Below, piece by piece: positions 1-47,600 of a DNA stretch of 64,000 nucleotides. The DNA lies in assembly GCA_046563655.1 (NCBI GenBank), contig CM102285.1:2604001-2668000 (forward strand). Direction: 5' to 3'. Each line of letters opens with the position of its first letter. Within the stretch, counting starts at the first letter, position 1. The position numbers and the translations under genes were made by a program. The stretch comes from Yuukianura sp. NJ FZ-2021. Its lineage: Eukaryota. The notes beneath the pieces were generated by a model. That model saw only the letters and a list, made by a program, of their open reading frames with translations, did no database searches and was not told the origin of the DNA.

Positions 1-2222
1 TCATTGGGACTTCCAGCTAACAGCATTAACTTTGGAGCTTGGGCTGATGTAAGCTGACAAAACAATATAACATCCAAGGTTGCTATAGCAAAGAAATAGT
101 TTTCTTTTAACAGGTTAGGCAATTAGTCCTGTTTTCGAAAAATCTTGAGTCAAATATTTTTCCTACCTTTTTTTGTTTTTTTAATATCTTTTACTCCTTT
201 TCTACTTTGAATTTGTCAATTCAAAAGCCATCTCTGCAAATTTTTTAACTCCTTTTATTATACCAACCGTGTTTGAAACTAGGTGAATTCAGTACTGAAA
301 ATTTTTTGCAAAACAGCTTAAAACTCGAGTTATTGTCTAACCTTTTAAAGAAAAAAAATTTCTTTGTTTATCCACGGTATTCTTGATAATACCGATTTCA
401 TATAAAATTAATATAATATATATCTTTAAATATTGTTGTTTTTGAATTTCAGGTTGGAGTTGCCGCGAACCTGAAAAGTTTCAAAGAAGGTACACTGGGA
501 ATGCGCAGCTTTACACCCAGTCAAGGTCTACAATCAATGCAAAGAATATTTTGGACAAATCGACGCCAAGTGGCCGTCGCGGACGTTTTTGATTGGAGTC
601 TTCTAAAGCAAATCAGTCGACTCGGTAACTATTTTGACCAAATAAAGTCTGAAGCCACTTTAACCATGAAGACAGCAGATGATGACAGCGTCATCACCGG
701 GAAACTTCAAACTGCAACGCCGGAGGAGCGTCAACAAACGATTGAAAACTTTTTGGAGAATGCTCTCAAAGAAACACTGAGAATTCCCGACAACGAGCGG
801 ATAGACCGAGATCAAAACTTTTCTGAAATCGGAGTCGACTCACTTATGGCCATGGAGTTGCGCAATCGAGTTCAAGGAATCTTGAACGGCAAACAATTGG
901 CAGTGACTGCATTACAAGAAAATCGAACCATCAGAAGCCTTGCAACTCACATGTCAAAACTAATTTGTTCAGATGACACTCAACAACTTTCGGTAGAATC
1001 TCTCATTGCGCAAGACTCAATTCTTCCAGCCGAAATTCAGCCCACTGAAATCCCGCCTTCAAAACCGAGTCAATTTAAACAAGTTATGTTAACTGGTGCA
1101 ACTGGTCATCTCGGTATCAACTTAATTCCGGCGCTGCAAAACGAAAATCCAAATTTGTTTATTCACTGCATCGTGCGCGGCAAAAGTTCTGTAGACGCCG
1201 GTAACCGCTTGAAAGAAGCTGTGAACCAATATTCTCTCACCAACAAAATCAATTTTCAAAAAATTCGAATTTTGGCGGGAGATCTTTCACAGAAAAATTT
1301 CGGCTTACCGTCTCACGTATACGATTCACTCACACAGGAAATTGATGCCGTTATTCACTGCGCCGTAAAAGCAAATCATGTAGAAGAGTACAACGGATTT
1401 GGAGCAGAGAGTTTGCGCAGAGTGAACGTCGAAAGTACTCTGAATGTTCTACGTTTTTCAGCCGTTGGTAAAACAAAGGCAATACTCTACGCATCAACAC
1501 TACTAGCCGCTTCTCAAGTAGATGAAAACTGCGCATTAGTCGAAAACTTTCCAACCGCGCATGACTCTGTTTCTACAACAAGCAATGGCTACGTTTTGTC
1601 AAAATTTGTCTGTGAACGGCTAATGGCACAAGCACTACAACGTGGAATTCCAGTCACGGTCATTCGGTATGCAAACATCTTCGGCAACAGTGAAACCGGG
1701 TTCTTGCCTACCGAAAAGAGTCATGCCTGGAGAATCCTCACTTCTTGTATCCGTGTAATGAAGTTTCCAAGTCTAGGTCAAAATGGTGTTCCTATAATGG
1801 CGGTGGATACGGCTGCTGACGTCACGGCAAAAATCTTCCTCCAAGATTCCATGGAAACGGGAATGTACAACTTGACCAGCAGTTCGACAATTTCAGAAGA
1901 AGATATTGTTGCAGCATTTTCGGAATTTGGGGTAGACGGAGAATTTGTGCCGTACTTGGAGTGGCGGGATTTAGTTTTCAAAAACAAAGAGGACAATGAC
2001 TTGGCAGCATTCCTGAGTCTGTATCATCAAGATGGTGATGCACAGGCGCAGAGCTTTCTAGGATTCCAGTCTTTGGCGAAAAACTTTCCAACCTTGAGGA
2101 TTAATACGATTAGTGAAAAAGTTAGGCGGAATTGTCCAGATTTTGAAGAGAGTATTGTTCCAATTCAGGATCTTTTGGAACAGCATCTTGAATTCTATTA
2201 TGAACAAAAACGAAACAAATGA
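1..2222 (+). CDS. Type I polyketide synthase, 3' part (5'-truncated by the window): KR C-terminus, ACP, terminal NAD(P)H-dependent thioester reductase (R) domain. Exons 1-48 and 453-2222
   Basis: Bases 1-48 encode SLGLPANSINFGAWAD, the typical KR end motif. A GT intron 49-452 (ending ttcAG) splices in frame to VGVAANL..., continuing into ORF 501-2222. The ACP motif is IGVDSLMAMELRNR (Ser codon ~840). The R domain has VMLTGATGHLG (Rossmann) and GYVLSKFVCE (YxxxK). Confidence 0.9.
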
Positions 2223-2920: not shown

Positions 2921-4720
2921 ATGAAAAACGGTCTTCAAATATTTATTATTTTATTCATCATTCGACATCCAGTTTCAGAAGCTAAAAGTAAGTTTGTTTT
3001 TTTGGCTTTCGTTAAAAATCGATAATTGTTTCAAAATTACTTTAGTTTTCCAACGCTTAACTTTCTTTACGCTGTTTTTTTTAAATGATAGTCGGGGCTG
3101 CTTGTGTAATTTCTGATTGGCGAAGATCAGAAGGCGTTTGTACACCTCTGGCAAAATGTGGTTCAGCCATTTCTGACTTGCGAGCTGGAGTAACCCCAAC
3201 AATATGTCCCGTATGAATATATAATTTAGATAAAATATTATATAAATGAACAACAAAATGATTATACCAGCCTAAACGTATTACTGGTCTTGAAATCTTG
3301 TTTACAGGCTCGGGAAACTCTTGTTTGCTGTCCAACTGAGAAAAGAATTAGCGAAGAAAGTGAGCAATTGCTTATAATTTTATCAATTTAACAAATTCAA
3401 ATGTTTTGATTTAAAGTGCAATCTGTTTCATTAGTGTGTGAGGGATATTTGGAAATTTTAAAAGAAACTAACGGGCCTACACCGCTGCTCCCCCTGGCTT
3501 TTCTACAAAATCGTCCAAAAGAAATTCAGTGTATAAATTTTGTTAATCAATTAATCGTGGATGGAAGAGATGCGCAGCAGGACGAATTCCCGTACATGGT
3601 AGGCAGTGGTGAGATTTTCGTTTGCGCAGATTCAATTTATCTTTACAACACGTTTATAATTGGCGCAAATTTTTAGGTGGCTTTGGGTTGGGGTCAAAAT
3701 CAGAACAATTTGGAGTTCGGTTGTGGTGGGACTTTGATTAGCGAAGACTTTGTTCTGACTGCTGCACATTGCATATCCAGACCGTAAGTGACACAGACTG
3801 CATTAACTCGAAAGTTGTGTTTCGCAGTACATAACCTCAACATCGAATTTTTGCAAAACGTAAAGTAAACACAGCCAATAATTTTTGTTCATATTTTGTA
3901 GCAAAAAGCCTACATATGCCTTACTGGGTGATATTCGACTGAGGACTGAGCACGGCGGAGGAAGTGGGAGACGGCAGTTAGTTAAAATTGTGCAGCATAT
4001 TCCGCACCCGAAGTACAAAAGGCCAAAAACGTATAACGACATTGCTCTTCTGAGACTTGAAAAACCAGTGGCCCTTTCAAGGTCAATTCTGCCAGCATGT
4101 TTGCCACAACCGCACATGCGCCTTGACCAGAGAAACAACACTGTTGCCTGTGGGTGGGGTCAAATAAATACCGCCGGTAGAGAAAAAATTGTTTATTTAT
4201 TTTTCGAATTCCTGTTTAGCGGGAAAAATTAAACCCAAAACGATTTTTCTTGGTTCTTTTCTTTAGAGGAACACAGCAACGTGCTGCAAGCAGTGAACTT
4301 GATGCGTCTTACTACAAGTGAATGCTCAAAGCAGTACAATAGTGATCAACTGGATGGGTCCCTTAAGTACCCACAAGGAATCCTTCGATCCCAGTTCTGC
4401 GCGGGTAAGTTTCAAACCGAAGTTTTTCCCACCACTTTAACTTGTTGAAATAGAAGGATAACAGCTTCAAGTGAAAAAATTTTTAAAGCAGTTTTTAATT
4501 TCTAGGAGACTCCGACCGCGAGAAATCGAAGAAGGATACTTGTAAAGGGGACTCAGGGGGGCCCTTGGTGGTTTCTAGTGACCGACATAGATGTCTCTAC
4601 TATGTCGTAGGCATCACATCATTTGGACCGAGTGTCTGTGGCCTCCTACCGGGCGTCTACACCAACGTCCAATCACATTTGGACTTTATAGAACAACACG
4701 TCTGGCCACGAAACGTGTGA
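2921..4720 (+). CDS. CLIP-domain trypsin-like serine protease (Snake/Persephone-like, CLIP-C), about 8 exons
   Basis: Signal-peptide exon 2921-2987 ([14 protein letters not shown]). Clip domain C-x9-GVC..KC...[12 protein letters not shown] (3092-3210, 3308-3359), then RISEEMCEGY. Activation site NQL^IVDG. Catalytic motifs TAAHC (~3760), DIALL (~4040) and [10 protein letters not shown] (~4540). Stop TGA at 4718-4720. Introns are GT-AG and in phase. Confidence 0.92.
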
Positions 4721-4984: not shown

Positions 4985-12519
<7,535 letters not shown>

Positions 12520-13816: not shown

Positions 13817-13874
13817 AGTGCACAGAATTTGGAACTGAAGCGTTTGTAGTTGACAACTAATTAAGAAATATATA

Positions 13875-14342
13875 ATGCCGCGAGACTATGCAAAACAGCT
13901 CTCCGAGAAGGATTTGGAAGAACTCACGGAAATATTCTGCTCGATGCCGACATTTGAAGCCTCAATTTCTACAAATGACGTAGCTGAACTGTATAAGAAA
14001 ATGGAATACGAGCAGACTCCGCAACAAATAGCATCTTGCGTGTTCTACTTTACAAAATATTTTAACGGGAGAATGCCGCTCAGCAGATTCCAAGACATTT
14101 TGAAGACGATTCATGATATAGCGGAATGTGCAAAAATTGCCGCCACAGTGTACGATACAAATGGGGATGGATTCATTGATGCGAGTGAATTCGAAGAATT
14201 CAAGGACATTTGTAGAACGCACGATCCACGACTAAAGGAAATCGATTTTGATAAGCTTATTCAACAGGCAGACAAAGACAGCGATGGGAAAATCAGCATT
14301 ACAGAATTTTCGGACTGGATCAACGCTTCACTCAAAATGTAA
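13875..14342 (+). CDS. EF-hand Ca2+-binding protein (calmodulin-like, 155 aa), paralogue 1, intronless
   Basis: Canonical C-lobe loops DTNGDGFIDASE and DKDSDGKISITE; the N-lobe is degenerate. Confidence 0.9.
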   Translation: MPRDYAKQLSEKDLEELTEIFCSMPTFEASISTNDVAELYKKMEYEQTPQQIASCVFYFTKYFNGRMPLSRFQDILKTIHDIAECAKIAATVYDTNGDGFIDASEFEEFKDICRTHDPRLKEIDFDKLIQQADKDSDGKISITEFSDWINASLKM

Positions 14343-14839
14343 TTCACACTACTAGCAGTATCCCAAGTAATCTATAAACCTTTCAAAACATTCAGTGCAA
14401 AGACAACCGAAATCTTTATTAATTTAAGATAACATTGTGAAGTTTATCTTATGTTTTACTGCTAATGCTGGTTTACATTCAAATAAAGCTGATCATTTTC
14501 CTTGGTTCTCTATTGGATCACGTTGGTAAATTTTTATGACAATAATCTTTTTTATCTTTCAAAAAAGCTGCAAATATACGCTTGCAAAAATTTATTTCTG
14601 TTTAAAAAAAGCTTCAGCCATAGTAAAAATGTTTTCGCTGGTTAACTAAGGCTAATTAATTTTTCATTGAGTTTTATTGACTGAAACCGAAAAAAGAGTT
14701 AATATCGTTCCGAGTTTGATCATATTTAGAGCTAAATGCCTCCTCAATTTCCAAATTAATGTTGATTAAAAATACAGAGCTTTGACTGAGCTTGTAAACC
14801 TCTTAAGTAACACTTTTAACATTCAAAGCTATGGCATTT

Positions 14840-15313
14840 TTATGGTTGTAATTTTAAATTAGTAGTCATCCAATCATGAAACTCGTCTAAGCTGATTTTG
14901 CCATCCTTGTTTTTGTCAGCATCTTTCAAGAGTTTCTCAAAATCCACCGCCTTGAGTTCAGGCATATGAACAACCATGAGAGTTTTAAATTCTTCGTACT
15001 CTTCTTTTGAAATGAATCCATCTCCATTTGTGTCGTACACAGCTACGGCTAGTCTTCCTTGTTCAACTGGATCCGAAATTGTTCTGAACGCATCGCGAAA
15101 CAAATTAATTGGTACCACGCCTCCATAGTGCTTTTCAAGATACGCCTTGTAAACAGCTCGTTGCTCCGGAGTACGCTCATATCCCACTATTTTATGTAGC
15201 TCAAATACGTCACTGACTGAAATGGACTCTTGATAGGACGGCATGGAACGAAATGTTTTAATAAGGTCTTCCATGTCCGATTCTGAAAGCGGTTTTGTGA
15301 AGTCCTTTGGCAT
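14840..15313 (-). CDS. EF-hand Ca2+-binding protein (157 aa), paralogue 2
   Basis: The ATG at 15313 (MPKDFTKPLS) aligns with the paralogues. Loops DTNGDGFISKEE and DKNKDGKISLDE. Confidence 0.9.
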   Translation of the reverse strand: MPKDFTKPLSESDMEDLIKTFRSMPSYQESISVSDVFELHKIVGYERTPEQRAVYKAYLEKHYGGVVPINLFRDAFRTISDPVEQGRLAVAVYDTNGDGFISKEEYEEFKTLMVVHMPELKAVDFEKLLKDADKNKDGKISLDEFHDWMTTNLKLQP

Positions 15314-17355
15314 CTTGAAATCACTTGATTTTGTATTTTGTTCCAACAAACAAAATTAGAAGCAAAATGAAAAGCAACTGTGGGCAGTCAAGAAAGATCT
15401 TCTGCCTTTTATGTATTGTTGGTAGTTTTCTCTTTGACTTAACTTCGCATTTAATAAGTAATGGGTTGAAACTGGTTAAATGATAACCTTTGAACAAAAA
15501 CGTGACTAATAAAAGTTTTACCTTGACAGAAAAGAATAATTTATTATGTTTTCTTTCAAACAACAATTCATAGTTTAAAGCAAGATAAATAGAATACTTC
15601 TAACTACTAGAGTCTAAGGTAAGAAATTAAAAAAAATGAAAACTTGATTATGAATCCAAGCTATAGTAGCTGTACAGATTTACTTTCATTCTGCTTTTAT
15701 TAAATGGCCTTCTTATATGATTTGGAAAACTTGTCAGATTTTTTAAGCTTTGGGATGAAACATAAAATTAGTTGCACCGACCAATACAACCCATCAGCTT
15801 CTTGAAAAAAGTTTTTTAAAATCATCCAGTAATTGGCTCGTGTCATACTTCATACATGACAACCCTTTTTAGAGTTTCTACAAAATCTGGTTTTAAAATA
15901 AAGCAGTCAGTTACGTAAACCACAAGTTGAATTAATCCTGAAGTATCTTGACGTCACTTGAAGGTTGAAATGGCACTTTATCACAAAACGCTTAGTAAAG
16001 TAGAGTGTGTTCAACAGTTGCCACTTATTGAGGCGTTCGCTCAAATTCAATCCTTTTAAACCAATCTCAATACGTCATTCATTAGTCGAAACGGATTGTA
16101 CGAATGTTTGCATCTATTGAAATATTTTCATGATCTCTGTCAAGTCTTTGTACTAGTATTATAAAAAAATAGTATACCACAGGAAAAGAACGACAACAAA
16201 ATTTATTTCATGGCACTATGGTGCTAGTTCGTCTAAAAACGCAAGACAGTTTATTTATCTTCAAAATTAAATATTTTTGATTTTTTCGGCGCGGGTTGCA
16301 TTGCGCGTGTGCAACATCATGTATACACCGGCGCCTGAGCCGATTATTTTGAGACTTAATGTCACTCCAGTGTCATTGGCCGAAAATAATTTCTTCGTCA
16401 CTTTTTACTCTTACCATGTTTCTGTTCACTGTTTTCCTTTTAGTTAATTAATCCCACTTCTTATTGTTGTGTTAGTTGCCAAAATACATCAAGCAGAGAG
16501 CAAATTAGAGAAAAATTAAGCAAATCGACCCATAGAAAGAAGAAAAAATGAAGAAGTTATCGAAAACCTAGACTTATCGTTTGGCTAGAAAACTAGGGTA
16601 ATCCAATTTCGGCTTTGGGACATTCGGGTTGTGGAACTTCTTGGGTATGCCAAAAAGTGCCCTCTGGCAGGAGTTATTTGAAGTTCAGAAAATCATTTGT
16701 GAGGCGATTACTGTTGACAAAATGGTTCAACTTTGGCCTGCATACTGTCAAAATTTTGAGGAACTGGAAGCTCTAATCATGATAGGGAAAAAAGCACTGA
16801 GCAGTTTAACAGGAACACCATTCATCCAATAATTATTGAACTTGGGAATGATTCCTCTTATTTCGAGATTAGTTTTGATGATTTAGGTTCGGATAATTAG
16901 GGGGTCACAAACGATATAGCACAGACTGTATTCAACCTTGTGAAAGAAAGTCAGTAACGAATGGCAACAACTAAAAAGTTAAGTAAACAAACTGTCTTGC
17001 GTTTTTAGACGAACATTAAATATTAATTGCTACTATTGTATAATATGAATTTTGAATAATTTTTTAAAAGATTTTGAAAATTCATTGATATTCATTCAGA
17101 AGAATATGTACTTGCTTATAGATTAGCTACAAACTACTAGTTGGTGAAAATGTTCTGGGAAATTTAAAAATGATAATTTAGAAAATATGATACATGATAA
17201 TTTAAAGAAATTTAGGTTTTGAGAACTTTCGACTGATTTTAGTAACTAATTACTTTCACGTCACTCCTCAAGTAACTGACAAGATGTCTTGGATATTTTC
17301 GATTTCAAAATATATGAATACAATAAAAGATTAAGGTAATTTGAGTATTAGTGAA

Positions 17356-18631
17356 TCACCATGTGAGTAGTGCATTTACTGTATTATCAATAACGAGTCC
17401 CAGATACGTTGCCTTTGTTTCGGGTTTGACCACGTACAACCTTCTTACCCTTACTCCAAATGGACGCAAGCTTTTCAAAAGCATTCTGTTCGATGCATGC
17501 TGTCCATGATCACTTTCATTTCGCCTCTTCTTGAGAATATCCGAACTTTCGTAGTTTCCCGCCACAGTGTAAAATGTCAACCCCATGAATGTGTTCACAA
17601 CTACCAGAACGATTGTTATGAAGTACGTTGAAAGAGGTACTTTACCAAATGTACGCATAGCTAGGTAGATTGAGCGGATCCAGACTATGGCTTGTGCCCC
17701 AAGCCACATTGGATTGAATACAGCTTGGAACGAGTCGTTGAATAAAGTGTCCAATAAGTAGCGAAGTCTATAGGCTGCTACAAATTCAGCAGCATTACTT
17801 GATCTATATCAAAAAATGTCAGATTGACATTACATGATATACATGTATTTCAAATGTGCATTAAGGTAACTTGAATATTTTCTTACTTTGCCAGAATTAG
17901 TCGTAATGATTTTGCCGATAGAGTCAAGTAGAGGATGAAGACGTACAAGATTGGAACAAGCGATGCGTAATAGGTTGTATAGAAGTAGCGATCCAACAAT
18001 CTTTCGGCAACTTCAAACGCGCGAAATTTACGTCCAAAGAGCATAACTGTAAGTTGGTAGCCTTGACCTCGACTAGTTAGTATGCTTGGAATAAGGACGG
18101 ACAATGACACCAACATACTTGCAATAAAGTAGGCGAGGACGGCATTTGATTTCTTCCAAATTTTCTTGAAATCGTATTGAAATTTTTCTATTGACAGAAA
18201 TTTTATTAATTTTATTAACATGATTTTTTTTTGTTACAGTTTTTGAAAAATTTACCTTCCATTCGGCCTTGAATTTTAATAAATTGATTGAGGAAGTATG
18301 CATATTCTTTCTCCTTTCCATTCAGCATGAGATGTACTGTCAAATATAGAACCAGGGTTTGAATTCCGCGGATCAAATCATTCACATCTTTTCTACTTAG
18401 GTCCAAATGTCCTTGTAAGAACTGAATCCAGCGAAATACAAAGAATAAGAAGCGTGCTGTCATTAGAAAATTTCGGAACTTGATGAAATACTTTCTTTTA
18501 ATTTTGATCAACTTGGTTTCGCTTGAAATGACTTTTGTTTGAGGAATTAAGGAAGTAGTGGTGACTGCAAAAGAAGTGAAAAAAACTATTGAGTTACATT
18601 TCATAAAACGAGAAAAGAGTTTGAGATCCAT
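17356..18631 (-). CDS. Gustatory-receptor-like 7TM chemoreceptor, ~374 aa; exons 18631-18256, 18187-17887, 17803-17356
   Basis: Three exons join in phase (376+301+448 = 1125 nt). There are multiple hydrophobic segments, and the C-terminus LKSLRPFGVRV...KATYLGLVIDNTVNALLTW resembles the arthropod GR TM7 region. Confidence 0.7.
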
Positions 18632-19400
18632 TTCAAAAAAAAAGTAAAAATTGAAAATGAATAGCTTAAGTTCGAGGCTTTTGTATCATTTTTTGAGTCG
18701 AGAGGTTTTAATTGTTTTTATGACACCGCGCTAAAGAAAGCAATTAGGAAGTTTGGAAAAAATGATAGAAAGAGGCAGAAGAGTCACAAATAATTTATGC
18801 TTCCTTCAAATCCAACTTTATTTCGTAAACCGCTTGTATTTAATTACACGATTTGTTTTTGAAATTACCAAAAATGCTTGTTTCAATTGAGAGAAAACGA
18901 TCAAAAAGGGGAAGATGTATGTTTGCTGTTGTAGGTATTGTTAAGTTAAAAATTAATTTTTACCACCTAATGCTTTGAAATAGCGGAGCAAGTAAATGAT
19001 GACATCAACAGACAAACTGACACAAACACAAATGGCTTGAGAATGGAAAATGGTTTAGGCAGTTAGTTTTATAACTTTTAGAACTCAACACATTAGAAAT
19101 AATAACTTATAATATGCAATAAACACGTAATAACTTATAATGTCAAACTGAAAAAACTCAGCAACACTCTACTCCATTATTGCTACTGCGCGACGTCAAT
19201 ACCAAAGGAATTGTACCGTATATGCTCGAATATTAGCCGTATTCTATTCCCCTCGCGAATTTGAAGAAAATTTCAAAGTATGGTAATTAGTGATAGCATT
19301 TTTATGGAAATTATAATTGTTGAACAACCAGATTTTATTTAAAAGATTCTCAATAATTTTTAGAAGATCGAAACAAAATTTTCATTTACTTGGATTACTT

Positions 19401-19640
19401 TCAACCAACGGCAGAACACATCGTGTTGTCTTCGTTGCATTTAATTACAGGTAAAGTTGCGCATTCGCAGAAAAATGCACCATTAAGCGGTCCACACCCA
19501 TTATCTTCTGTTCCACTTTTTTCACAATGTGCAGCACAATGTTTGCAATCGTCAATTTTTCCCACGGAAAGAGCGCCTTCAGCGTCATGGCTCATCCAAA
19601 CAATAAGCATAAGCGCCAGCAAGTAAAATTGAATCTTCAT
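19401..19640 (-). CDS. Small secreted cysteine-rich peptide (79 aa, 8 Cys), CSab/defensin-like
   Basis: Signal peptide MKIQFYLLALMLIVWMSHDAEGA. Cys spacing C-x2-C-x3-C-x9-C-x8-C-x-C-x7-C-x6-C includes the CxxxC...CxC pair. A likely 5'UTR intron spans ~19862-19645. Confidence 0.8.
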   Translation of the reverse strand: MKIQFYLLALMLIVWMSHDAEGALSVGKIDDCKHCAAHCEKSGTEDNGCGPLNGAFFCECATLPVIKCNEDNTMCSAVG

Positions 19641-20430
19641 CGTGCTACAAAAAGTAGGTTTTAAAAATTTCTGAAAATTGAATTTGTAATTTTTGAAACT
19701 AGCTTAAATCTAAATTATAAAAATTAAATATTGAAGTCGCAGAATTTTATAGTATTAAGTAATAATATAAAATAGTACTGTTTTTGGTTTTAAATACAAT
19801 AATCGAATACCTTCAAAGGCAGAATCTTCCGATGAAATTAAAAAAAATGATTTATGACTTACATAATGCTTCAGGTTTGGCTTTAAAGAGAAGTTTTTTA
19901 TTCCGTGACCCTAATTGCTTCAAATCAAAACGGTTCTCACTTAAAACCGTTTAAAACAAATTACTTATTAACCTGACTAGAATCAATACCCTCAAAAACC
20001 TCAAAATGTAGTATGCATCATAGGTGAATTGGCATTTGGCAAAAGATTTGAAAAAAATTTAGACTCATTTGAATTTTCAAAAACATATAATTGTCAAAAG
20101 GCATATAATTGTCCCTATCTAATGAAAGAACTCGCATCGTCGCATCACAAAACATTCCATAAGGGATTTGACGTCTTTGGAAAAAGTACTCGCCGCAAAT
20201 TTGCAAAAGATGCAATGTCGTGAATAATTTTCGACAACTTTCAACCGGTCTAATTTACACTGCGCAATGATCAAAGTCCAATATAGAAACACCTCCTTCG
20301 ACAATCTATCCAGCAAAATAGCTTAGATATCAACTTCGTCCATGTTGTACTGTTTCTGCAAACGGAAGTTAGTTTAGGTAAAGCCTTTGATTTATTCCAA
20401 AAATTCAACACACCAACAAAAGTAAAAATT

Positions 20431-20874
20431 TCAATGCAACACGGATCTGATTCTAGCTATGAAGGCATCGACATTGACTTTTCCATTTTGAATCAATTTT
20501 GAAAAATCCTCATCTTTTAACCTAGGGTCATTTACAACTACAAAGTTCTTGTACTCTTCAAAGTGTTCTGCTGACATGCAACCATCTTGGATGTACACTT
20601 GAGCCCCCAATTGCGCAGTTGCGGCAGTATCGTGTAGAGTTTTACAAGATTCAATAAAGATTTGCAGTGAGAGCTTCCCGCCAAAATATTTGTCAAAGTA
20701 AAATTTGTTAGCTGACACTTGCTCTGTTGATCTTTGGAATTCCATTTTGAGGTAGAGGTCACCAAGGTCACTTGTTGAAATCGATTCTTCCTGGTATGTA
20801 GCCATTGACCGGAAAATTTGTTCCAATTCTGCCAAATCCTGCACAGAGAGTGGCTTGGTAAAGTCGCGACCCAT
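20431..20874 (-). CDS. EF-hand family paralogue 3 (147 aa) with both Ca2+ loops degenerate
   Basis: The N-terminus MGRDFTKPLSVQDLAEL and the DPRLK motif match the paralogues. The loops are reduced to YIQDGCMSAEH and IQNGKVNVDA. The ORF is intact. Confidence 0.82.
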   Translation of the reverse strand: MGRDFTKPLSVQDLAELEQIFRSMATYQEESISTSDLGDLYLKMEFQRSTEQVSANKFYFDKYFGGKLSLQIFIESCKTLHDTAATAQLGAQVYIQDGCMSAEHFEEYKNFVVVNDPRLKDEDFSKLIQNGKVNVDAFIARIRSVLH

Positions 20875-21609
20875 TTCTTAAAAAACTTGAACTTTTGAAT
20901 AATTGAAATGGAGTTTTTTTGCAAATTGGACTGAAACGGGTTAAATTAAAGTTATGGCCAAAACGAGGTCAAAAATTCTCACAAAGTTGGTGAAAAAAGT
21001 TAGTGAAAGTGTACTTCCTGACATCTAAAGACAAAATGATTGTAAATACAAAGCTATTCAAATAGTTTGTTTACCACCCGCATCACATCCGATCCTTTGT
21101 GTAATTTCATAAATTCAAGGCTACTCTAAACCAAAGTAGGAGGAGCTTCCACTCGTTCTTTAAATTAAATAATCGTAGGAAAATTTTTATTACTATGTCC
21201 TTCGCAATAGTTTAGAAATGGCACAAATCCAACAGCAGTTGTTAGAGGCAATTTAACAATTAATGATATTAAATTTAAGCGAATTATTTAATAATACAAT
21301 CAAAATTATTTAACTGCCAATCTATTTTTTAAACTATTAATAGGGTTATGGTTACTATTTGATTTATTTTATGAAATCATTTAATGATTTCAAAATTTGT
21401 CAACTCTGGAAATGATTGTAGCTTTAATCTTAAATTAAACCATCCAGTAGAAACACAAAAAAAATTCTCGGCTTTATTTCAAGTAAAACAGGGTATCAGT
21501 AAAACAAGATAAATTTCGCATTGATTTCTTACAGTAATGAAGTTTTTCTAAAGTTTTTGCCTTGAAAATTTTCAAATTCAAAGATTCCTTGGGATAATGT
21601 TAGTTTTGT

Positions 21610-22077
21610 TTACATTTTGAGTGAAGCGTTGAGCCAGTCTGAAAATTCTGCAATACTGATTTTGCCATCTCCATTTTCGTCTGCCTCTTCAACAAGCTTC
21701 TCAAAATTGATTTCCTTTAGTCGCGGATCGTGCGTTCTACAAATGTCCTTGAATTCTTCGAATTCACTCGCATCAATGAATCCATCCCCATTTGTATCGT
21801 ATACTGTGGCGGCAATTTTTGCACATTCTGCTATATCATGGATCGTCTTCAAAATGTCTTGGAATCTGCTGAGCGGCATTCTCCCGTTAAAATATTTTGT
21901 AAAGTAGAACACGCAAGATGCTATTTGTTGCGGAGTCTGCTCGTATTCCATTTTCTTATACAGTTCAACTACGTCATTTGTAGAAATTGAGGCTTCAAAT
22001 GTCGGCATCGAGCGGAACATTTCTGTGAGTTCTTCCAAATCCTTCTCGGACAGGGGCTTTGTATAATCTCGAGGCAT
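21610..22077 (-). CDS. EF-hand Ca2+-binding protein (155 aa), paralogue 4; inverted near-duplicate of 13875-14342
   Basis: Loops DTNGDGFIDASE and DENGDGKISIAE. The central ~340 nt is almost identical to paralogue 1. Confidence 0.9.
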   Translation of the reverse strand: MPRDYTKPLSEKDLEELTEMFRSMPTFEASISTNDVVELYKKMEYEQTPQQIASCVFYFTKYFNGRMPLSRFQDILKTIHDIAECAKIAATVYDTNGDGFIDASEFEEFKDICRTHDPRLKEINFEKLVEEADENGDGKISIAEFSDWLNASLKM

Positions 22078-22963
22078 TTAATTGTTTTTTAATTATTCTC
22101 TTTTCAGCTCCAAATTTTGTATACTTCTGATGCTAGATCACATGAAATCAATGCATTTATATATGTCTCCAAATGCAGGGAATTAAAAAGCAAGGCGTTG
22201 CAGTTTAATCAAGGCCAACTACTTAATTAAAGTGTTATTTTGTAAACAATTTTGAACGTATCCAAAATAGCAATTGCAACTCTTGGAAATTCCACTTTAG
22301 CCAATCACATGACCTGATTTTGACTAAATTGGTTTTGAGAGTTAATTAAGCGGTATATGGTTTAGATAACTTGAAAATGTCTAGACCTTTGATTGTTCAA
22401 ATAGTGGTTAATTATTGAGCTGTGGGTTTTAATTGTATTAACTAGTTATGCTCATTAGAATATTTTAGGTTGTACATGTCACTTGTAACTGCGCAAGTGG
22501 ATTTACGTCAACAGCTTTGGAACAAAATTGTTGGATGCTAATAGCTTGTGATTTAAAAATCGTTGTCAACTCAATATTTTTGTTTCGAAATGTACAAATC
22601 TTCTCTTCGACTTTTCATAGGATGAATTCAATTCCTGTTGAGAAAAGCCGTCAATTTTTTTGGTTTTCGCTTTAGTATGAGGCGTACATTACTCTGATGA
22701 GTGCTGGGACTACGATAATGAAAAAAATATTGAAAAGAATGAAGAATGTGTGTAATCTGGTTTTATTAAACATTTTAAATTTTCACATTCAAAGCAGCGT
22801 AAAAGTATGCAACAATTACAACAAAAGTGAATCGTAACAGCTTATCATATTGAATTTTTCAAACAGTAGCGTGTGACATTAAGAATAGAAATCCTCATAT
22901 GTATGTGAAACCCATTTTCTAAAACTCAGTTTTCAATTGAACTTCGTTTGTGAAAATTTCCAT

Positions 22964-23431
22964 TCAAATTTTGCCTGACTTTTTGATCCAGTTTGAAAAC
23001 TCTTCCACGCTGATTTTGCCATCGCCATTTTCATCTGCCTCTTCAACTAGTTTTTCGAAGTTGATTAGTTTGAGCCGTGGGTCATGCGTGCTGCAGACTT
23101 GCTTAAAATCTTCAAACTCTTCTTTTGAAATGAACCCATCTCCGTTCTTGTCGTAGGCTTCGGCGGCAATTTTGATAGCCTCTGACGTATCATGTATCTT
23201 TTCAAAAACTGACTGACACTTCGATAGTAATACCCTGCCATTATAGTGTTTTTCAAAGTAGGACACAAGAGATGATACTTGTTCCGGAGCGTATTCATAC
23301 TCAATTCTCTGGAAAAACGCCGCTAGGTCAGTTACTGAAATAGAACCTTCAAATGTTGGCATGGACTGAAATGTTTCTGTGATCTTGTGCAATTCCGAAG
23401 CGGAGAGTGGCTTGGTGTAATCTGGCGCCAT
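22964..23431 (-). CDS. EF-hand Ca2+-binding protein (155 aa), paralogue 5
   Basis: The ATG at 23431 (MAPDYTKPLS) aligns with the paralogues; the longer ORF-track start is non-ATG. Loops DKNGDGFISKEE and DENGDGKISVEE. Confidence 0.9.
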   Translation of the reverse strand: MAPDYTKPLSASELHKITETFQSMPTFEGSISVTDLAAFFQRIEYEYAPEQVSSLVSYFEKHYNGRVLLSKCQSVFEKIHDTSEAIKIAAEAYDKNGDGFISKEEFEDFKQVCSTHDPRLKLINFEKLVEEADENGDGKISVEEFSNWIKKSGKI

Positions 23432-43000: not shown

Positions 43001-44585
43001 AAAGGAAGAAAAAGTTGACATCCTCATTAAATGGAATTAAAGTGAGGAAAAGGAAGGCTTTAGCTCCTGCTTTTATTCTAAATTCTGCGGAAAACAAAAT
43101 TTCAAAAGTTCCCGCGCTCTTTTTAGACCAAGTTCTAACAAAAGAGGAAGTAGACTTGAAAAGAAGCGGAGAGAAAGTCATTAGTTTTCTTTTCCTTTTA
43201 GGAAGTTCAAATAGAGTTTTCTGGATAGGAAAACGTCGGGCCTTGGCAGTAGCGCGGTTTTTTAAATTGGAAGTTACTGCGCGCCTTGTACTAGAAAAGA
43301 GAGCAGGGAAACGCCATCATTTAGAATCTAGTGAGACGACGTCGTCAACCATAATAGAAATTAATAGTTTTTTCAAATTGTCGGAGTAGTATGAGACAAG
43401 TTACCCGATTTTTCCATTAACCTACAAGCGACGTTGGACTGAGGTGATGATGATGTCAAAAAATACTTTTGGCGGCAAACAAAGTTTCTTTTGAAAATGA
43501 ATCCCGTTTGCTGTGATTTATGGAACACGTCAAAAATTCACAGTTTTCAAAACAAAACAAAAGTTTTCAAAGAAAAAAAAAGAAGTTAAAAATTCAACAT
43601 TTTCAGAAACACTGTAAGACATATTCTTAACTACTCGTTATCACAACATTATTATCTAATGCAACATAATGTAACAATATAACACAACGTGATATACAGG
43701 GTGTATTGCATAATTTATACTAACATTTTAGGGGTTTTTCAAAAGTTTAAGAGAATCAAGGAATTCAAAAATTCTGATACACAGAGTACAAATCGTATTG
43801 TACAATACATATGACGTCACCGTCACCATATGTATAGCGGGCGGTAAAATTTGAGTTGGTTTGAAATAAATTTGTGTGAGTGATTCACTTACAGCTAATG
43901 TCATACTCTAAGTTCAGGATCAATCACAACTGTCATCCGAAATTGAATTTTGGAGCCAACACATCTGAGGACCTCCGAGCGCATTCGACTGAAAGTTTCT
44001 CACTTTGCCCCGAGTCAGTCTTCCTACCAATTCGTATCCGTATATTACGTTCTTCCATTCGTTAGATTCTGATGGTGGTGGGAGTAACAAATGAGTTTTG
44101 GAATTTAGAGCCCCATTTGCTCCAATTCAAATGGATTTAATTAAATTCCTTTAATTTATTTATTTGAGCAGATGGAGAAAGCCTCTGTTGATTTCCCAGC
44201 CTTTCGCGGATGCCTCTGGTGGTGACTTTCTTCACTTTCACTTTCAGAACTGAACCGAATGTTGGTTTTATGTGACCATAAAATGCAAATCGGAGGGTGA
44301 CTCCAGTGGAGGTTAATGATAGGAAATCCTCTTGCCTTCGGAGGGATCCTCCAACGGAGGAAGGAGGAAGAGACCTCCTCCTCCTGCAAATCGTCATTTT
44401 TTGTGCTGAACTCACTGGAATTAATTTTATGACGGAAAACGGAGGATAAAATCAAAATTAATGGATTGTGAAATTCTTCAAACTTAAATTGTCTTCAGAT
44501 TCAATGGTGGCGGAGATTCTTCTAATAGCACTGGATCTTCTCTAACTCCATTCCGAGTACCAACACTTGTCATCGTTTTCCGGGC

Positions 44586-44656
44586 CCTTTCGGTCTTCAC
44601 TGTAGGCCTTGATGTAAAAATAAATTGTCATAAGGCACGCGGTGAATGCCAAAAGC
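44586..44656 (+). ncRNA. mir-124: pre-mir-124 microRNA hairpin; mature miR-124-3p at 44631-44652
   Basis: The exact conserved mature sequence TAAGGCACGCGGTGAATGCCAA is present. The complementary 5' arm ggtcttcactgtaggccttgatg (44592-44614) sits across an AT-rich loop, with a cttt/aaag lower stem. Confidence 0.97.
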
Positions 44657-47600
44657 GGTGTCACGGACTCCAGCGATTTGTTTGCGTCGTCATTACTGCC
44701 GTTCTTCTGTCGCTATCCCGAAGCTACGCAATTTATTCGGTGTGCTCCAGGCTTAAAGTCTCTCGCCACACACGTCAACTTCAAAATTATTAAGTGTGTG
44801 GCAGCCAGAAGAGTGAATAAACACCAATCTCAGTCTGTGAAACAGTACATCACTTTTTTTTAAATTTGTCACAGTAGGTGTGAAAATTTTTACCAAATTT
44901 TTTAAAAACTTTTTATGCAAAGAATTTGTTAAAAACATACAAGAATATTCTTATTCTCTTCTAGTGTGTTGAAATATGTGCTAACGTTTGGTATTGCTTA
45001 TCAGTTGTTCTGTACATGCGAGTGTACTTCAGAAAAGTAAAAATTGTATTTACATTTTAGTAGAGATCACACACAATGTTAATCAAACTTTTTTTATTGC
45101 TTGTATTTTGAAACATTGAAATTCAAAAGAAACTTTATATCACATTTCCTCCTGCTGTTTTAAGTCTATAGGGTTTACTTTGTCGTTTTTCCGTTTTTTT
45201 ACGAATATGAAAATATGTAAAAATTTCAAATGTTTCTTTCGCGCAATTTCCTTGTTGGAAACAAAAGGAGAAAACAGGAACGGAAAAGTGAAAGTTTTGA
45301 ATAAAAAGTTTATTGCCTCTTCAGCCATTGCGTTTTTACTTTAACTTCCTCTGTCTGTCAGGAAGGAGGAATATATGATGATGCACGACCTTGTCCAAGT
45401 ATAAGACGCAGAGTCCGGCGTCGTCTCGACTCCCTTAATACTTCCTCAAGATTATGGGCGGGAATATTTGAATTATGGTTGTTCATAGTCTAAAGGCTCC
45501 TCCCTTGAGTCGCTGCAGGGGACACGGGGGCGGGGACGCGGTAACGTCTTTTACGCGTTTCCATTTTCCTTAACTAAAACCTAAAACTTGGTGAAAGTTC
45601 TTGTGTGCCAATATAAGCAATTCTCTCTCTAAACCTAACCTAACATTTTTTCCCGCTTTTTTCTCTCTTTCAAAGAAAAAGTGCAGAGGGAGTCAATAAA
45701 ATGGTCCAAATGGAAGGGAAGCTGAGGACAGCACATACTTTTATTTTTTGTCACTTGTAAGCAATGCTACGCCGTTTCTAAAATATTGTTGTCTCAGGAA
45801 GCAGTAGCATCCTGCGTTCCTTCCCTTGTGCAGCACTCTACTTCTGCACTCCAAACGGGCGGGAAATTTTGAAAACGTGAGCTCATAAATTATTCCTTAA
45901 TTGACTATTTGGAGAAAACATTTCATAAAAAAAGACCGCGTCCTTAGAACTTTTCTTTTCTTCTTTAGAGTTATGCTTCCACTTTACCACCGCTGTCAAC
46001 TTTTTTGGAGTCCAGGCAGTGTTAGAATCAGCAGAGCTAGTGTTAGAACTGTACACAAAAATTAATTCGTTCGAGTAAAAAAAATGTCCAGAAAAAGTTT
46101 TTGTTCTAGTAAATTTGGCAGTAATTTCAAAAGTTTCCAAAAAAATGGACCACTTTCACGCCAGGCCAGACCGAGGAAGCCTTTAAGGCTGGTTCATACT
46201 TTTTCCCAAAACTAATTTTTTTGGTGAGTTTTTGTTTTCAGAAATTTTTGGACGTGCTTAATATCTTTTGACCACATTATTAACGCTTCTCGGAAGAGAG
46301 ACATGCAACGGACTACTTCGTTGATTTTGACACGGCGGTTCTCCCTCCTGGACAAAGTGTGTGAAAATTTTGAACAGTCCCGCCAGTCCTTTCTCTTCCA
46401 GTATCATCAATATTCGGGCATGATTAATGGCCTTTCTCCTTCCGACAGCCTTTGGTCCAAAGTTTAGACACACATGGAACATGAAGGGAACTCATGGAAG
46501 CTAGGCGCTTTACGTCTTTTGGCGTTCTTTACTTCATCTCCGCTTTTATTTGCAGAGTAACTTGAATTGAAGGCGCTCAACTCCAAAAACAAAACTGCCA
46601 GCTACGGCTAAAGAAGGATTTCCGGAGGATGAACGTTGTCTTTCTATGATCAGAATAAACGAACGATACACACTCACACATCGCCTTTCAAAAGAAACTG
46701 AATTGAGTTTTCAATTTTCCCGCCACGCCGCGCACAACTCTTCCGTTTTTAATTAAAAGTTAAGCTCTTACCTGCCCCTAATCAGCAAACGGCTTGGCTA
46801 ATTTTTTTATCATAGCATTTTAGCTTCCGTCTTTTCCTTGTCGTAGACATTTCTCTTTTCCCGTTCAAATTTTACGCGCGCAAATTTTCTTCTTCAAATT
46901 TTTTTTTATATTTTAGTTTCAAAAATTTAACGCTGGTTGTACCCTGAATTATTTTCGTTCAAATTTTTTATGGAATGTTGTTTGGTAAAACAAAAAGATA
47001 AACGTAATTTGAGTACGAAAAATCGAAATTTTATATAGCACGGTGCGAACGTTATTTCAAAAAAATTTCGCTCATTTTCTACGAATGGAAAATTCTATAA
47101 TGGTAATTGCAAAGCTACCAGAGAATGAGATTTGAATTTCAGTGAAAAAAAAGAGAAATGAACGTTTGCTGCTTATGTTGTAGAATGGAATTGCCTTAGT
47201 ATTTATACATGAAGGCTTCCATAACCTCCAGTTCTTAACGTCCTACCTCCTCCCTCTGAATTCAAATTCAAATGTCGGCGCGCTAATTTCGTTGCAGGCG
47301 GGTGGTTTGTCTGGTAGTGTGGTGGTGTATTTCGGTACTTTGGAAGTTAAAGTTCCTGCGTCTCAAATCGTCTCCTCAAATGCCTGCTGCGAGACCAATT
47401 TTCTCTCGACAAGGTTTCCTGGGAGTGAAAGTAAATTGTGGATCATTTTCTTCTATTTCCCGCGCTTTTCCTCTTTTCTTCCATTTCTGATCTCATGCTT
47501 CCCAGATTAGAAGATAAAGAATCCTTGCTGCTTCCTGCTGCTTTTTCCAGTAAGCAGCAGTAGTTCTCGTGTCTGAGAAACATTGGTAGCTTTCACCTAG

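What the first reader, a model, noticed from the sequence alone, without database searches (positions are those of the whole stretch)
1..2222. Intron-containing, reductase-terminated type I PKS in an arthropod genome
Seen: a KR tail, an ACP (GVDSLMAMELRNR) and a C-terminal R domain, with a spliceosomal intron, next to ordinary arthropod genes. Known: animal FAS ends in ACP-TE, whereas the GxDSLMAxELRNR ACP and GLPAxSINWGAW KR motifs are typical of bacterial modular PKSs, and R domains release aldehydes or alcohols. Inference: this is a horizontally acquired, domesticated PKS making a reduced polyketide such as a defence compound, pheromone or cuticular lipid. The product is unknown.
Basis: partly seen in the sequence, partly recalled or inferred. 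Interest (0 to 1): 0.85.

Follow-up and report, generated by a model that had tools for sequence, protein, structure and literature searches.

The report
Reductase-ended polyketide synthase tail, soil arthropod
The window opens inside a real, intron-containing animal gene for a bacterial-type polyketide synthase that ends in a chain-releasing reductase; such genes are already reported from springtails, but no product is known for any of them.

Summary
Window 1-48 (KR end), a GT..AG intron (49-452) and exon 453-2222 encode 16 + 589 residues. These carry an ACP (PP-binding, E 4e-13) and a thioester reductase (TIGR01746, 218 bits, cutoff 213). The TGxxGxxG and YxxxK motifs are intact. The predicted fold matches the myxalamid terminal R domain.

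The contig is animal. An eight-exon serine protease gene starts 700 bp downstream and mir-124 lies at 44.6 kb. Composition matches the neighbours.

The gene is not FAS/AFPK-like. Its carrier region hits only bacterial PKS/NRPS chains in the PDB. In R-domain trees it falls in a well-supported clade of 30 of 79 rows and 36 of 171 rows. The only organism-named members of that clade are five springtail (Orchesella dallaii) synthases, one of them KS-AT-DH-MT-ER-KR-ACP-R. The best prokaryote match is 29% identical.

Ancient transfer from bacteria is therefore plausible but not shown. Bacterial-type PKSs in springtails are already in print (PMC5490193). This is a divergent new member of a known kind. 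Upstream domains, expression, host species and product remain unknown.

The parts
1..48 (+). End of the penultimate exon seen in the window. It encodes SLGLPANSINFGAWAD, the C-terminal motif of the ketoreductase domain. The gene continues upstream of the window.
   Evidence: It is colinear with the KR ends of relatives P0061, P0064, P0067, P0079, P0047, P0069 and P0083. In P0065 the Pfam KR domain ends just before the homologous point.
49..452 (+). Phase-0 spliceosomal-type intron of 404 nt (GTAAGC ... polypyrimidine tract ... TTTCAG), 26.5% GC.
   Evidence: There is an in-frame stop three codons into it. Exon-exon colinearity with intron-less relatives is shown. There is no RNA evidence.
453..752 (+). 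Post-KR linker (residues 1-100). It is poorly conserved and predicted with low confidence.
   Evidence: alignment A1; pLDDT 28-49 for residues 1-80.
753..950 (+). Acyl carrier protein domain (residues 101-166). The phosphopantetheine serine is Ser130 in GVDSLMAMEL (nt 840-842).
   Evidence: PF00550, E 4e-13; PF23297. G127, D129, S130 and L131 are invariant in 16 of 16 aligned relatives.
1080..2156 (+). Terminal NAD(P)H-dependent thioester reductase (R) domain, residues 210-568. The Rossmann motif TGATGHLG is at residues 214-221 (nt 1092-1115). The catalytic residues are Tyr380 (nt 1590-1592) and Lys384 (nt 1602-1604).
   Evidence: TIGR01746, 218.3 bits, above cutoff 213.35. (PF07993, E 7.6e-46). 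(G215, G218 and K384 invariant; Y380 in at least 90% of rows). (alignment to MxaA 4u7w, 120 bits). (model pLDDT mostly 85-97 over this domain; Foldseek top hit 4w4t/4u7w, target TM 0.87-0.89).
2220..2222 (+). Stop codon TGA. Poly(A)-signal-like hexamers follow at 2464, 2534, 2760 and 2811.
2921..4717 (+). Context, not part of the PKS. This is the next gene downstream, an eight-exon secreted S1 serine protease with intact TAAHC, DIALL and GDSGGP motifs and an N-terminal cysteine pattern of the CLIP type.
   Evidence: frame reading. (PF00089 on exon 3882-4232, E 5e-12). (PDB hits to animal S1 proteases). The CLIP label comes from the cysteine spacing and recall; Pfam on exon 2 alone found nothing.
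44585..44657 (+). Context: a mir-124 precursor, a marker of a bilaterian animal genome. It lies on the far side of a 100-N scaffold gap (7883-7982).
   Evidence: 57.2 bits against a gathering score of 49, E 2e-10. (mature arm readable). (gap).

Best explanation
Window 1-2222 is the last 1.8 kb of coding sequence of an animal-genome gene for an iterative, bacterial-type (non-FAS, non-AFPK) type I polyketide synthase. The host is probably a soil micro-arthropod.

Shown:
- The part in the window encodes the end of the KR domain, a linker, an ACP with its phosphopantetheine serine, and a C-terminal SDR-type thioester reductase of the MxaA kind with cofactor and catalytic motifs intact.
- The gene is split by at least one intron.
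- It has host-like composition.
- It belongs to a diversified clade whose only organism-named members are springtail synthases.

Inferred mechanism:
- The unseen upstream part builds a reduced, possibly C-methylated chain on the ACP. In relatives that part is KS-AT-DH-MT-ER-KR.
- The R domain uses NAD(P)H to cleave the thioester.
- The chain leaves as an aldehyde, or after a second hydride transfer as a primary alcohol, rather than as a free acid.

Inferred origin: one old transfer of a bacterial PKS into an arthropod lineage, followed by duplication, intron gain and compositional amelioration.
For: Domains and motifs. Fold: mean pLDDT 78.9, R domain mostly 85-97; top PDB hits are the myxalamid R domain 4w4t/4u7w, then the S. 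coelicolor PKS thioreductase 8v1x, then CAR PCP-R didomains.

Not FAS/AFPK:
- Residues 1-200 of the window protein hit 19 PDB sequences at E<=0.01. All are bacterial PKS/NRPS carrier regions (best DEBS, 39 bits). None is an animal FAS or AFPK, although both are in that library.
- The Orchesella clade-mate P0065 scores 737 bits to mycocerosic acid synthase and 688 to CurL. It scores 490 and 464 to animal FAS, and 388 and 376 to the AFPKs EcPKS1 and EcPKS2.

Clade:
- In an IQ-TREE 'quick' tree of 79 R domains (79 of the 191 proteins held, 112 left out), the query lies in a 30-row clade with SH-aLRT 98. That clade holds 21 short ORFs, 4 Orchesella proteins and 4 unnamed multi-domain PKSs.
- In a FastTree of all 171 rows with an R domain of at least 250 aa (of 178 with an R hit), the clade has 36 rows and support 99.
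- None of the 36 has an adenylation-domain hit.
- Organism names were obtained for 6 of 30 proteins looked up. Five are Orchesella dallaii, all inside the clade. One is a Desulfobacteraceae MAG, outside it.
- Architecture of clade members: KS-AT-DH-MT-ER-KR-ACP-R.

Eukaryotic setting of relatives:
- Several clade ORFs begin exactly at the query's exon start (P0045, P0184; probably P0054 and P0081). One breaks off inside the TGxxG motif (P0184).
- Clade members have AT-rich-type amino-acid make-up (FYMINK/GARP 0.85-1.69), against 0.37-0.68 for the three named bacterial proteins.

Host context: the serine protease gene starts 700 bp downstream on the same gap-free stretch, and mir-124 is present. 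The PKS exon has GC 43.1% and GC3 39.7%. Neighbouring coding regions have GC 40-49% and GC3 36-47%.

Constraint: of the 13 variants listed inside the exon in runs X1-X4, 9 are synonymous, against 22% expected (binomial p 4e-4).

Independent presence: DNA contigs of two studies hold the stretch.
Against: - The KS, AT and any DH/MT/ER domains are outside the window and no genome is held. 'Type I PKS' therefore rests on 16 KR residues, the ACP, and homology of the whole exon to PKS C-termini.
- No RNA run was available, so neither the splice nor expression has been observed.
- The host taxon is not established. Two neighbour-gene searches found no close homologue. The CLIP label is from recall.
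- The scaffold has a 100-N gap between the PKS and mir-124.
- The variant count uses only the 13 rows shown (250 more were not shown). Several of them sit on one contig, so they are not independent. One (D452N) hits a nearly invariant residue.
- The 'quick' and FastTree supports are the weaker kinds, and the trees are unrooted.
- Four multi-domain clade members (P0047, P0077, P0080, P0099) are unnamed, long, uninterrupted ORFs from metagenome or Logan contigs. They could be bacterial.
- C-terminal regions of animal synthases are said to recombine (PMC10764717). The KS of the Orchesella relative may therefore not represent this gene's KS.
- Whether release gives an aldehyde or an alcohol cannot be read from sequence.
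Confidence: 0.7

Rival explanations
1. It is a vertically inherited animal FAS-like PKS (AFPK) or FAS derivative that swapped its thioesterase for an R domain. No horizontal transfer is involved.
For: PMC10764717 (passages read) states that a few arthropod AFPKs carry R domains in place of TE, and that C-terminal regions can arise by recombination. The gene has an intron and host-like composition.
Against: The window's own linker and ACP region hits only bacterial PKS/NRPS chains in the PDB (19 of 19), and no FAS or AFPK chain. Clade-mate P0065 has a KS-AT far closer to MAS and CurL (737 and 688 bits) than to FAS (490 and 464) or AFPKs (388 and 376). It also has an active-type MT and ER layout. 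No KS from this gene itself could be tested.
Confidence: 0.07
2. It is a decaying or orphaned remnant: a 3' fragment of a once complete PKS gene that is no longer expressed or no longer joined to a working KS-AT part.
For: Only the 3' end is visible. No RNA holder was listed. Some clade relatives exist only as fragments. One variant changes a nearly invariant Asp.
Against: The ORF is open for 589 codons with all catalytic and cofactor motifs intact. The exon-intron junction is intact and in phase. Listed variants show a synonymous excess, 9 of 13 against 22% expected.
Confidence: 0.12
3. It is foreign DNA (fungal, bacterial or protist) mis-assembled onto an animal scaffold.
For: PKS-R genes are typical of microbes. 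The scaffold contains a 100-N gap. Contigs laid from public runs are too short (about 150-900 bp) to bridge from the PKS to the protease.
Against: There is no N between the PKS stop (2222) and the intron-rich protease gene (2921-4717). GC and GC3 equal the neighbours', and the intron is AT-rich like the intergenic DNA. Summed contig depth in the runs is of the same order over the PKS exon and its neighbours; in X1 it is 197-392 against 46-371, which is a weak measure. The closest named relatives are annotated arthropod proteins on 1.4-3.9 Mb contigs. The best prokaryote match is 29% identical.
Confidence: 0.03
4. It is the tail of an NRPS, or of a carboxylic-acid-reductase-like enzyme (A-T-R), rather than of a PKS.
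For: Many of the 150 best database hits are A-domain proteins ending in T-R. NCBIfam lists MxcG, Lys2-type and CAR models below their cutoffs.
Against: The 16 residues before the intron are a KR C-terminal motif colinear with KR-bearing relatives. None of the 36 clade members has an A-domain hit, and 7 of the 8 multi-domain ones have KR directly upstream; P0058 does not. NF045894 (type I PKS) matches residues 13-171.
Confidence: 0.05

Closest known systems
Springtail (Collembola) bacterial-type type I PKSs: Orchesella dallaii CAL8085358.1 (P0065), CAL8085190.1, CAL8118605.1, CAL8131186.1 and CAL8139144.1, and the 30 type I PKS clusters reported for Folsomia candida (PMC5490193)
   Same: Same R-domain clade. 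Same KR-ACP-R tail. They are encoded in arthropod genomes. The family is flagged as HGT in print.
   Different: Only 24-35% identical to the query over the exon. The query sits in a sister subclade made only of unnamed metagenome ORFs (best 42-50% identity). The Orchesella forms examined read through the point where this gene has an intron. None has a known product.
MxaA terminal reductase of the myxalamid PKS-NRPS (PDB 4u7w, 4w4t)
   Same: Best sequence match (120 bits) and best fold match (target TM 0.87-0.89) in the PDB. It shares the TGATGxLG and GYxxSK motifs and its position at the end of an assembly line. By recall, MxaA performs a four-electron reduction to the alcohol.
   Different: Bacterial, about 24-30% identical, and it follows an NRPS module rather than a KR-ACP.
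Animal FAS and animal FAS-like PKSs (AFPK; EcPKS1 and EcPKS2; PMC10764717, PMC11831141)
   Same: Animal-encoded, intron-bearing, iterative megasynthases. A few arthropod AFPKs are reported with R domains.
   Different: FAS and most arthropod AFPKs end in TE. The window's carrier region and the clade-mate's KS-AT both score best with bacterial PKSs, not with FAS or AFPK.
Mycocerosic acid synthase-type iterative bacterial PKS (PDB 9d2z, 5bp1)
   Same: Best PDB match of the clade-mate P0065 over KS-AT-DH (737 bits). It is a fully reducing iterative synthase that makes multi-methyl-branched chains (recalled).
   Different: MAS has no MT domain and no R domain. The comparison is for a relative, not for this gene's unseen N-terminal part.
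[quoted passage not shown]
   Same: A soil arthropod with KS domains that nest among bacterial PKSs. GC is near the host's. The products include aldehydes (passages read).
   Different: Only KS fragments were described there. No sequence comparison with this gene was possible.
Fungal non-reducing PKSs with terminal R (citrinin-type; P0014, P0017, P0019, P0022, P0027)
   Same: PKS-ACP-R logic with reductive release.
   Different: They form a separate, long-branched R clade (support 100) far from the query, have NR-PKS architecture, and are 20-24% identical.

Membership tests
Thioester reductase domain (TIGR01746; extended SDR, PF07993) | Profile score at or above the curated cutoff | tested here: met
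   218.3 bits against a cutoff of 213.35, residues 210-568 covering 357 of 371 model positions. PF07993 E 7.6e-46.
Thioester reductase domain (TIGR01746; extended SDR, PF07993) | Rossmann TGxxGxxG cofactor motif and catalytic Tyr-x3-Lys (redox-active R, not a Dieckmann-cyclase R*) | tested here: met
   TGATGHLG at 214-221. Y380 and K384 align with GGYAQSK of MxaA. That R* domains lack the Tyr is recalled.
Thioester reductase domain (TIGR01746; extended SDR, PF07993) | Two-subdomain R fold next to a carrier domain | tested here: met
   AlphaFold model and Foldseek: 4w4t/4u7w target TM 0.87-0.89; CAR PCP-R didomains also hit.
Thioester reductase domain (TIGR01746; extended SDR, PF07993) | NAD(P)H-dependent release of an aldehyde or alcohol from an acyl-S-carrier | not testable with these tools
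   Needs an enzyme assay.
Type I polyketide synthase | Carrier domain with a phosphopantetheinylated Ser in a DSL motif | tested here: met
   PF00550 E 4e-13. GVDSL with Ser130 is invariant in 16 of 16 relatives.
Type I polyketide synthase | KR domain directly upstream of the ACP | tested here: inconclusive
   Only the last 16 KR residues are in the window. They match the KR end of relatives colinearly.
Type I polyketide synthase | KS and AT domains in the same polypeptide | not testable with these tools
   They lie upstream of the window and no genome is held. They are present in clade-mates P0065, P0077 and P0080, and partly in P0099.
Animal FAS / AFPK | C-terminal thioesterase after the ACP (FAS and most arthropod AFPKs) | tested here: not met
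   An R domain follows the ACP and there is no TE hit.
Animal FAS / AFPK | Sequence affinity to animal FAS/AFPK rather than to microbial PKS | tested here: not met
   For the window's residues 1-200, 0 of 19 PDB hits are FAS or AFPK. For the relative P0065, bacterial PKS chains score 597-737 bits (13 chains above 551) against FAS 464-490 and AFPK 376-388. This gene's own KS was not tested.
Springtail-type R-terminated PKS clade | R domain groups with the Orchesella dallaii PKS R domains, to the exclusion of bacterial and fungal R domains | tested here: met
   SH-aLRT 98 (30 of 79 rows). FastTree support 99 (36 of 171 rows).
Horizontally transferred gene | Nested within a donor clade with support, or a close donor homologue | tested here: not met
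   The best prokaryote genome match is 29% identical over residues 115-493 (39 loci). In the exhaustive search the nearest proteins with A-domain or FAAL-KS architectures are 27-28% identical. The R tree places bacterial NRPS R domains next to the clade only with weak support (87 and below).

The most novel reading that the evidence does not exclude
The gene represents a deep, so far undescribed subclade of an animal-encoded, R-terminated, fully reducing PKS radiation in soil micro-arthropods. This radiation may be what makes their unusual multi-methyl-branched cuticular or defensive lipids by reductive release. One example is the 2,4,6-trimethylalkan-1-ols found esterified in the springtail Anurida maritima (PMC11321324, passages read). 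Another is aldehydes such as those of oribatid mites (PMC7542773). On this reading a MAS-like or MT-bearing iterative synthase builds the branched chain and the MxaA-like R domain delivers the alcohol or aldehyde directly, without passing through a free acid and a separate fatty-acyl reductase.
Probability: 0.25. Interest if true: 0.7.

Novelty: new member of a known kind. Interest (0 to 1): 0.45.

Why it matters
Animal-encoded polyketide synthases of the microbial type are rare. No springtail or mite PKS was found characterised in the papers searched.

The chemistry of these animals includes branched alcohols, ethers, cyclopropane hydrocarbons and chlorinated polyketides with no assigned genes (PMC11321324, PMC10825826 as cited in PMC13389473). 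An intact, selectively constrained KR-ACP-R tail gives a concrete candidate for reductive chain release.

The roughly 36-member clade is mostly known only from metagenome fragments. It shows that this family is larger and older than the few annotated genomes suggest. This window alone adds a divergent sequence, not a new principle.

Tried and rejected
- Whole-genome access: none is held for this window, so the upstream exons could not be fetched.
- RNA evidence: no RNA holder was listed among the 4 runs. The contigs laid are DNA only and 150-900 bp long, so they neither confirm the splice nor bridge from the PKS to the protease.
It was redone with the 5-row A2.
- Host identification: the EF-hand neighbour gave only distant EF-hand hits. 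Protease exon 6 gave no hit. The ESM Atlas search on the 346-aa ORF gave no usable hit. PDB hits of the protease exons are dominated by mammalian proteases and do not resolve the taxon.
- Earlier scan notes: nothing by place, sequence or words.
- Search for tailoring genes downstream: 20 ORFs scanned with Pfam gave only trypsin and EF-hand hits and no biosynthetic enzyme. Most of the 43 ORFs of at least 110 aa look non-coding.
- Self-comparison: the first 500 bases and the PKS protein have no second copy in the window.
- KS phylogeny against animal FAS/AFPK: not possible, because no such sequences could be obtained. PDB bit scores were used as a proxy.
- Rejected readings: fungal NR-PKS origin (separate clade) and an NRPS tail (see rivals).
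Full report
**What is in the sequence**

Frame 1 of window 1-48 reads SLGLPANSINFGAWAD. At base 49 a GTAAGC donor follows, and the frame closes after three more codons. An AT-rich stretch (26.5% GC) ends in a polypyrimidine tract and TTTCAG at 452. From 453 a 589-codon frame runs to TGA at 2220-2222.

The exon-exon reading ...AWAD|VGVAANL... is colinear, without a gap, with relatives that have no interruption there. Examples are P0047 GLPAQTINWGIWSDIGAAAGL and P0061 GLPATVVNWGNWGEVGVATEL. The intron call is therefore well founded on sequence grounds. No RNA run was available to confirm it.

**Domains**

- Pfam finds PP-binding at residues 101-166 (E 4e-13) and NAD_binding_4 at 213-457 (E 7.6e-46).
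- NCBIfam finds the thioester-reductase model TIGR01746 over residues 210-568 at 218.3 bits, above its curated cutoff of 213.35.
- In a 16-sequence alignment of relatives, the carrier serine (GVDSL, Ser130), the Rossmann glycines of TGATGHLG and Lys384 are invariant. Tyr380 is present in at least 90% of rows.
- The alignment to the myxalamid reductase MxaA (PDB 4u7w, 120 bits) matches LLTGATGFLG and GGYAQSK to the same positions.
- An AlphaFold model built on that alignment has mean pLDDT 78.9. The ACP is mostly 71-88 and the R domain mostly 85-97. The first 80 residues, the post-KR linker, are unstructured or uncertain.
- Foldseek ranks the myxalamid R domain first (target TM 0.87-0.89). Next come the Streptomyces coelicolor PKS thioreductase 8v1x and the PCP-R didomains of carboxylic acid reductases.

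The only caveat is that just 16 residues of the KR lie in the window.

**Surroundings**

No genome is held for this window. The evidence that the contig is an animal's is as follows.

- *Protease neighbour.* On the same strand, 700 bp after the stop and with no N in between, lies an eight-exon gene for a secreted S1 serine protease. It has intact TAAHC, DIALL and GDSGGP motifs. Its N-terminal cysteine spacing looks like a CLIP domain, but that label is from recall and Pfam on one exon alone found nothing.
- *Other genes.* Further on are serine/threonine-rich ORFs and a tandem array of five EF-hand genes.
- *mir-124.* At 44585-44657 there is a mir-124 precursor at 57 bits against a gathering score of 49. 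mir-124 marks a bilaterian genome. It lies beyond a 100-N scaffold gap at 7883-7982, which sits in a local direct repeat.
- *Composition.* The PKS exon has GC 43.1% and GC3 39.7%, within the range of the neighbouring coding regions (GC 40-49%, GC3 36-47%).
- *Independent runs.* Public DNA runs from two studies hold the stretch as short, polymorphic contigs. Summed contig depth is of the same order over the PKS exon and its neighbours, which is a weak measure.
- *Variants.* Of the 13 variants listed within the exon, 9 are synonymous where 22% would be expected (p 4e-4). This suggests purifying selection. The caveats are that the list is partial (250 further rows were not shown), that several variants share one contig, and that one changes a nearly invariant Asp.
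- *No cluster.* No tailoring enzyme was found among the 20 downstream ORFs scanned. There is no sign of a gene cluster on this side.

**Relatives**

An exhaustive HMMER search of 1.84 billion representatives gave 14,289 hits at E<=0.001.

- *The best hits.* They are 32-50% identical. Most are ORFs of about 230-600 aa that begin at or just after the query's exon start.
- *Signs of introns in relatives.* P0045 and P0184 begin at the homologous VGAAA, and P0054 and P0081 probably do too. P0184 breaks off inside the TGxxG motif. This is what a prokaryotic gene caller produces on intron-bearing eukaryotic DNA. Others (P0050, P0061, P0064, P0067, P0079) read through the junction, so the intron is not shared by the whole family.
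- *Names.* Organism names could be obtained for 6 of the 30 proteins looked up. Five are Orchesella dallaii, a springtail. One is a Desulfobacteraceae MAG.
- *Architecture.* The longest Orchesella protein (CAL8085358.1, 3219 aa) is KS-AT-DH-MT-ER-KR-ACP-R. Unnamed P0077, P0080 and P0099 have the same order.

**Trees**

- An IQ-TREE 'quick' tree of 79 R domains was built from 79 of the 191 proteins held; 112 were left out, mostly further NRPS tails and short fragments. The query falls in a clade of 30 with SH-aLRT 98. That clade holds all 21 short ORFs included, the 4 Orchesella proteins and 4 unnamed multi-domain PKSs. Bacterial NRPS, FAAL-KS hybrid and other PKS R domains lie outside, as do fungal NR-PKS R domains.
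- A FastTree of all 171 rows with an R domain of at least 250 aa (of 178 with an R hit) gives the same clade with 36 rows and support 99. None of these 36 has an adenylation-domain hit.
- Within the clade the query belongs to a subclade made only of unnamed fragments. Its support is SH-aLRT 93 but only 59. This subclade is sister to the group that contains Orchesella.
- Both methods give the weaker kinds of support, and the trees are unrooted.

**FAS/AFPK or microbial-type PKS?**

The KS of this gene is out of reach, so two proxies were used.

- The window's own residues 1-200 hit 19 PDB sequences at E<=0.01. All are bacterial PKS or NRPS carrier regions, led by DEBS modules. None is an animal FAS or AFPK chain, although those are in the library.
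- The Orchesella clade-mate scores 737 bits to mycocerosic acid synthase, 688 to CurL and 597 to EryAI. It scores 501 to LovB, 490 and 464 to animal FAS, and 388 and 376 to the AFPKs EcPKS1 and EcPKS2.

Both proxies point to a bacterial-type type I PKS. Because C-terminal regions of animal synthases may recombine (PMC10764717), the second proxy is indirect.

**Origin**

- A pattern scan of one genome for each of 185,579 prokaryote species found 39 loci. The best is 29% identical over residues 115-493, in Clostridium sp. DSM 8431.
- In the exhaustive search the nearest proteins of clearly microbial architecture are 27-28% identical.
- Clade members share an AT-rich-type amino-acid make-up like the Orchesella proteins (FYMINK/GARP 0.85-1.69). 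The three named bacterial proteins have 0.37-0.68. This is a hint, not proof, that the unnamed members are also eukaryotic.

The picture is a deep clade that appears to be carried by eukaryotes, diversified to 22-43% identity with the query. It has gained introns, its composition is fully ameliorated, and its nearest outgroups are bacterial. That fits an old transfer from bacteria followed by expansion, which is also how the literature treats springtail PKSs. There is no identifiable donor, and vertical descent with wide loss cannot be excluded with the data at hand. A similar unresolved pattern is reported for microbial-type terpene synthases of springtails (PMC13638087, passages read).

**Literature**

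- PMC5490193 (passages read) reports 36 antiSMASH clusters in Folsomia candida. Thirty are type I PKS, and most of their genes were flagged as HGT.
- PMC10764717 (abstract and passages) treats a Folsomia PKS as horizontally acquired. It notes that arthropod AFPKs usually end in TE but that a few have R domains.
- PMC7542773 (passages) reports bacterial-like KS domains in an oribatid mite that makes aromatic aldehydes.
- PMC11321324 (passages) describes springtail cuticular lipids, including 2,4,6-trimethylalkan-1-ol esters.
- Six full-text searches turned up no paper that assigns a product to a springtail or mite PKS, or that describes this R-terminated clade.

**Mechanism**

*Shown:* a carrier domain followed by a redox-competent, MxaA-like thioester reductase at the C-terminus of a KR-containing synthase.

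*Inferred:* the upstream part, likely KS-AT-DH-MT-ER-KR as in clade-mates, iteratively builds a reduced and possibly methyl-branched chain on Ser130. The R domain then transfers hydride from NAD(P)H to the thioester and releases an aldehyde. A second reduction, as in MxaA (recalled), would give a primary alcohol. Which of the two is made, and the chain itself, cannot be read from sequence.

**Verdict**

I file it as a new, divergent member of a known kind. Host species, upstream architecture, expression and product all remain open.

Noticed in passing
window 44585-44657 (+): A mir-124 precursor (57.2 bits, gathering score 49). The mature arm TAAGGCACGCGGTGAATGCCAA is readable. It lies in a gene-poor 30-kb stretch.
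   Followed up: partly
window 13854-23599 (both strands): A tandem array of five intron-less paralogous EF-hand genes of about 150-160 aa, each starting MP(R/K)D(Y/F)(T/A)K(P/Q)LS or a close variant (13875-14342 +, 14840-15313 -, 20431-20871 -, 21610-22077 -, 22964-23431 -). The one searched (21610-22077) has no close homologue among 5.8 billion proteins; its best hit covers 35% of the query at 44% identity.
   Followed up: partly
window 7883-7982: A run of 100 N (scaffold gap). It is flanked on both sides by near-identical copies of an approximately 80-bp sequence, so the gap sits in a tandem repeat.
   Followed up: no
window 1-250 and 57-431: Summed contig depth in runs X1-X3 is 6-13 times higher in the first 250 bases than in the next bin (for example 4150 against 314 in X1). 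One X2 contig joins 57 to 431, skipping 373 bases of the intron. The intron interior may hold a repeated element or be polymorphic. There is no second copy inside the window.
   Followed up: partly
window 2921-4717 (+): A complete eight-exon secreted S1 serine protease gene with a signal peptide, a six-cysteine N-terminal module of CLIP-like spacing and an intact His/Asp/Ser triad. Exon 6 found no homologue in the word-indexed protein search.
   Followed up: partly
window 1806: A G>A variant present in contigs of runs X1-X3 changes Asp452, which is nearly invariant in the family, to Asn. It could come from a paralogue or a related species in the sample.
   Followed up: no
window 25171-26944 (+): Two large ORFs (138 and 346 aa) of one apparent gene. 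The first ends in a sequence reminiscent of a dsRNA-binding motif. There is no Pfam hit and no usable ESM Atlas hit.
   Followed up: partly
window 4985-5875 (-) and 8054-8836 (-): Long serine/threonine/proline-rich ORFs (296 and 260 aa) without Pfam hits. They look like mucin-like or low-complexity proteins.
   Followed up: no
window 17356-18685 (-): Three adjacent ORFs (150, 116 and 156 aa) with hydrophobic, multi-pass membrane character, possibly exons of a chemoreceptor-like gene. There are no Pfam hits.
   Followed up: no
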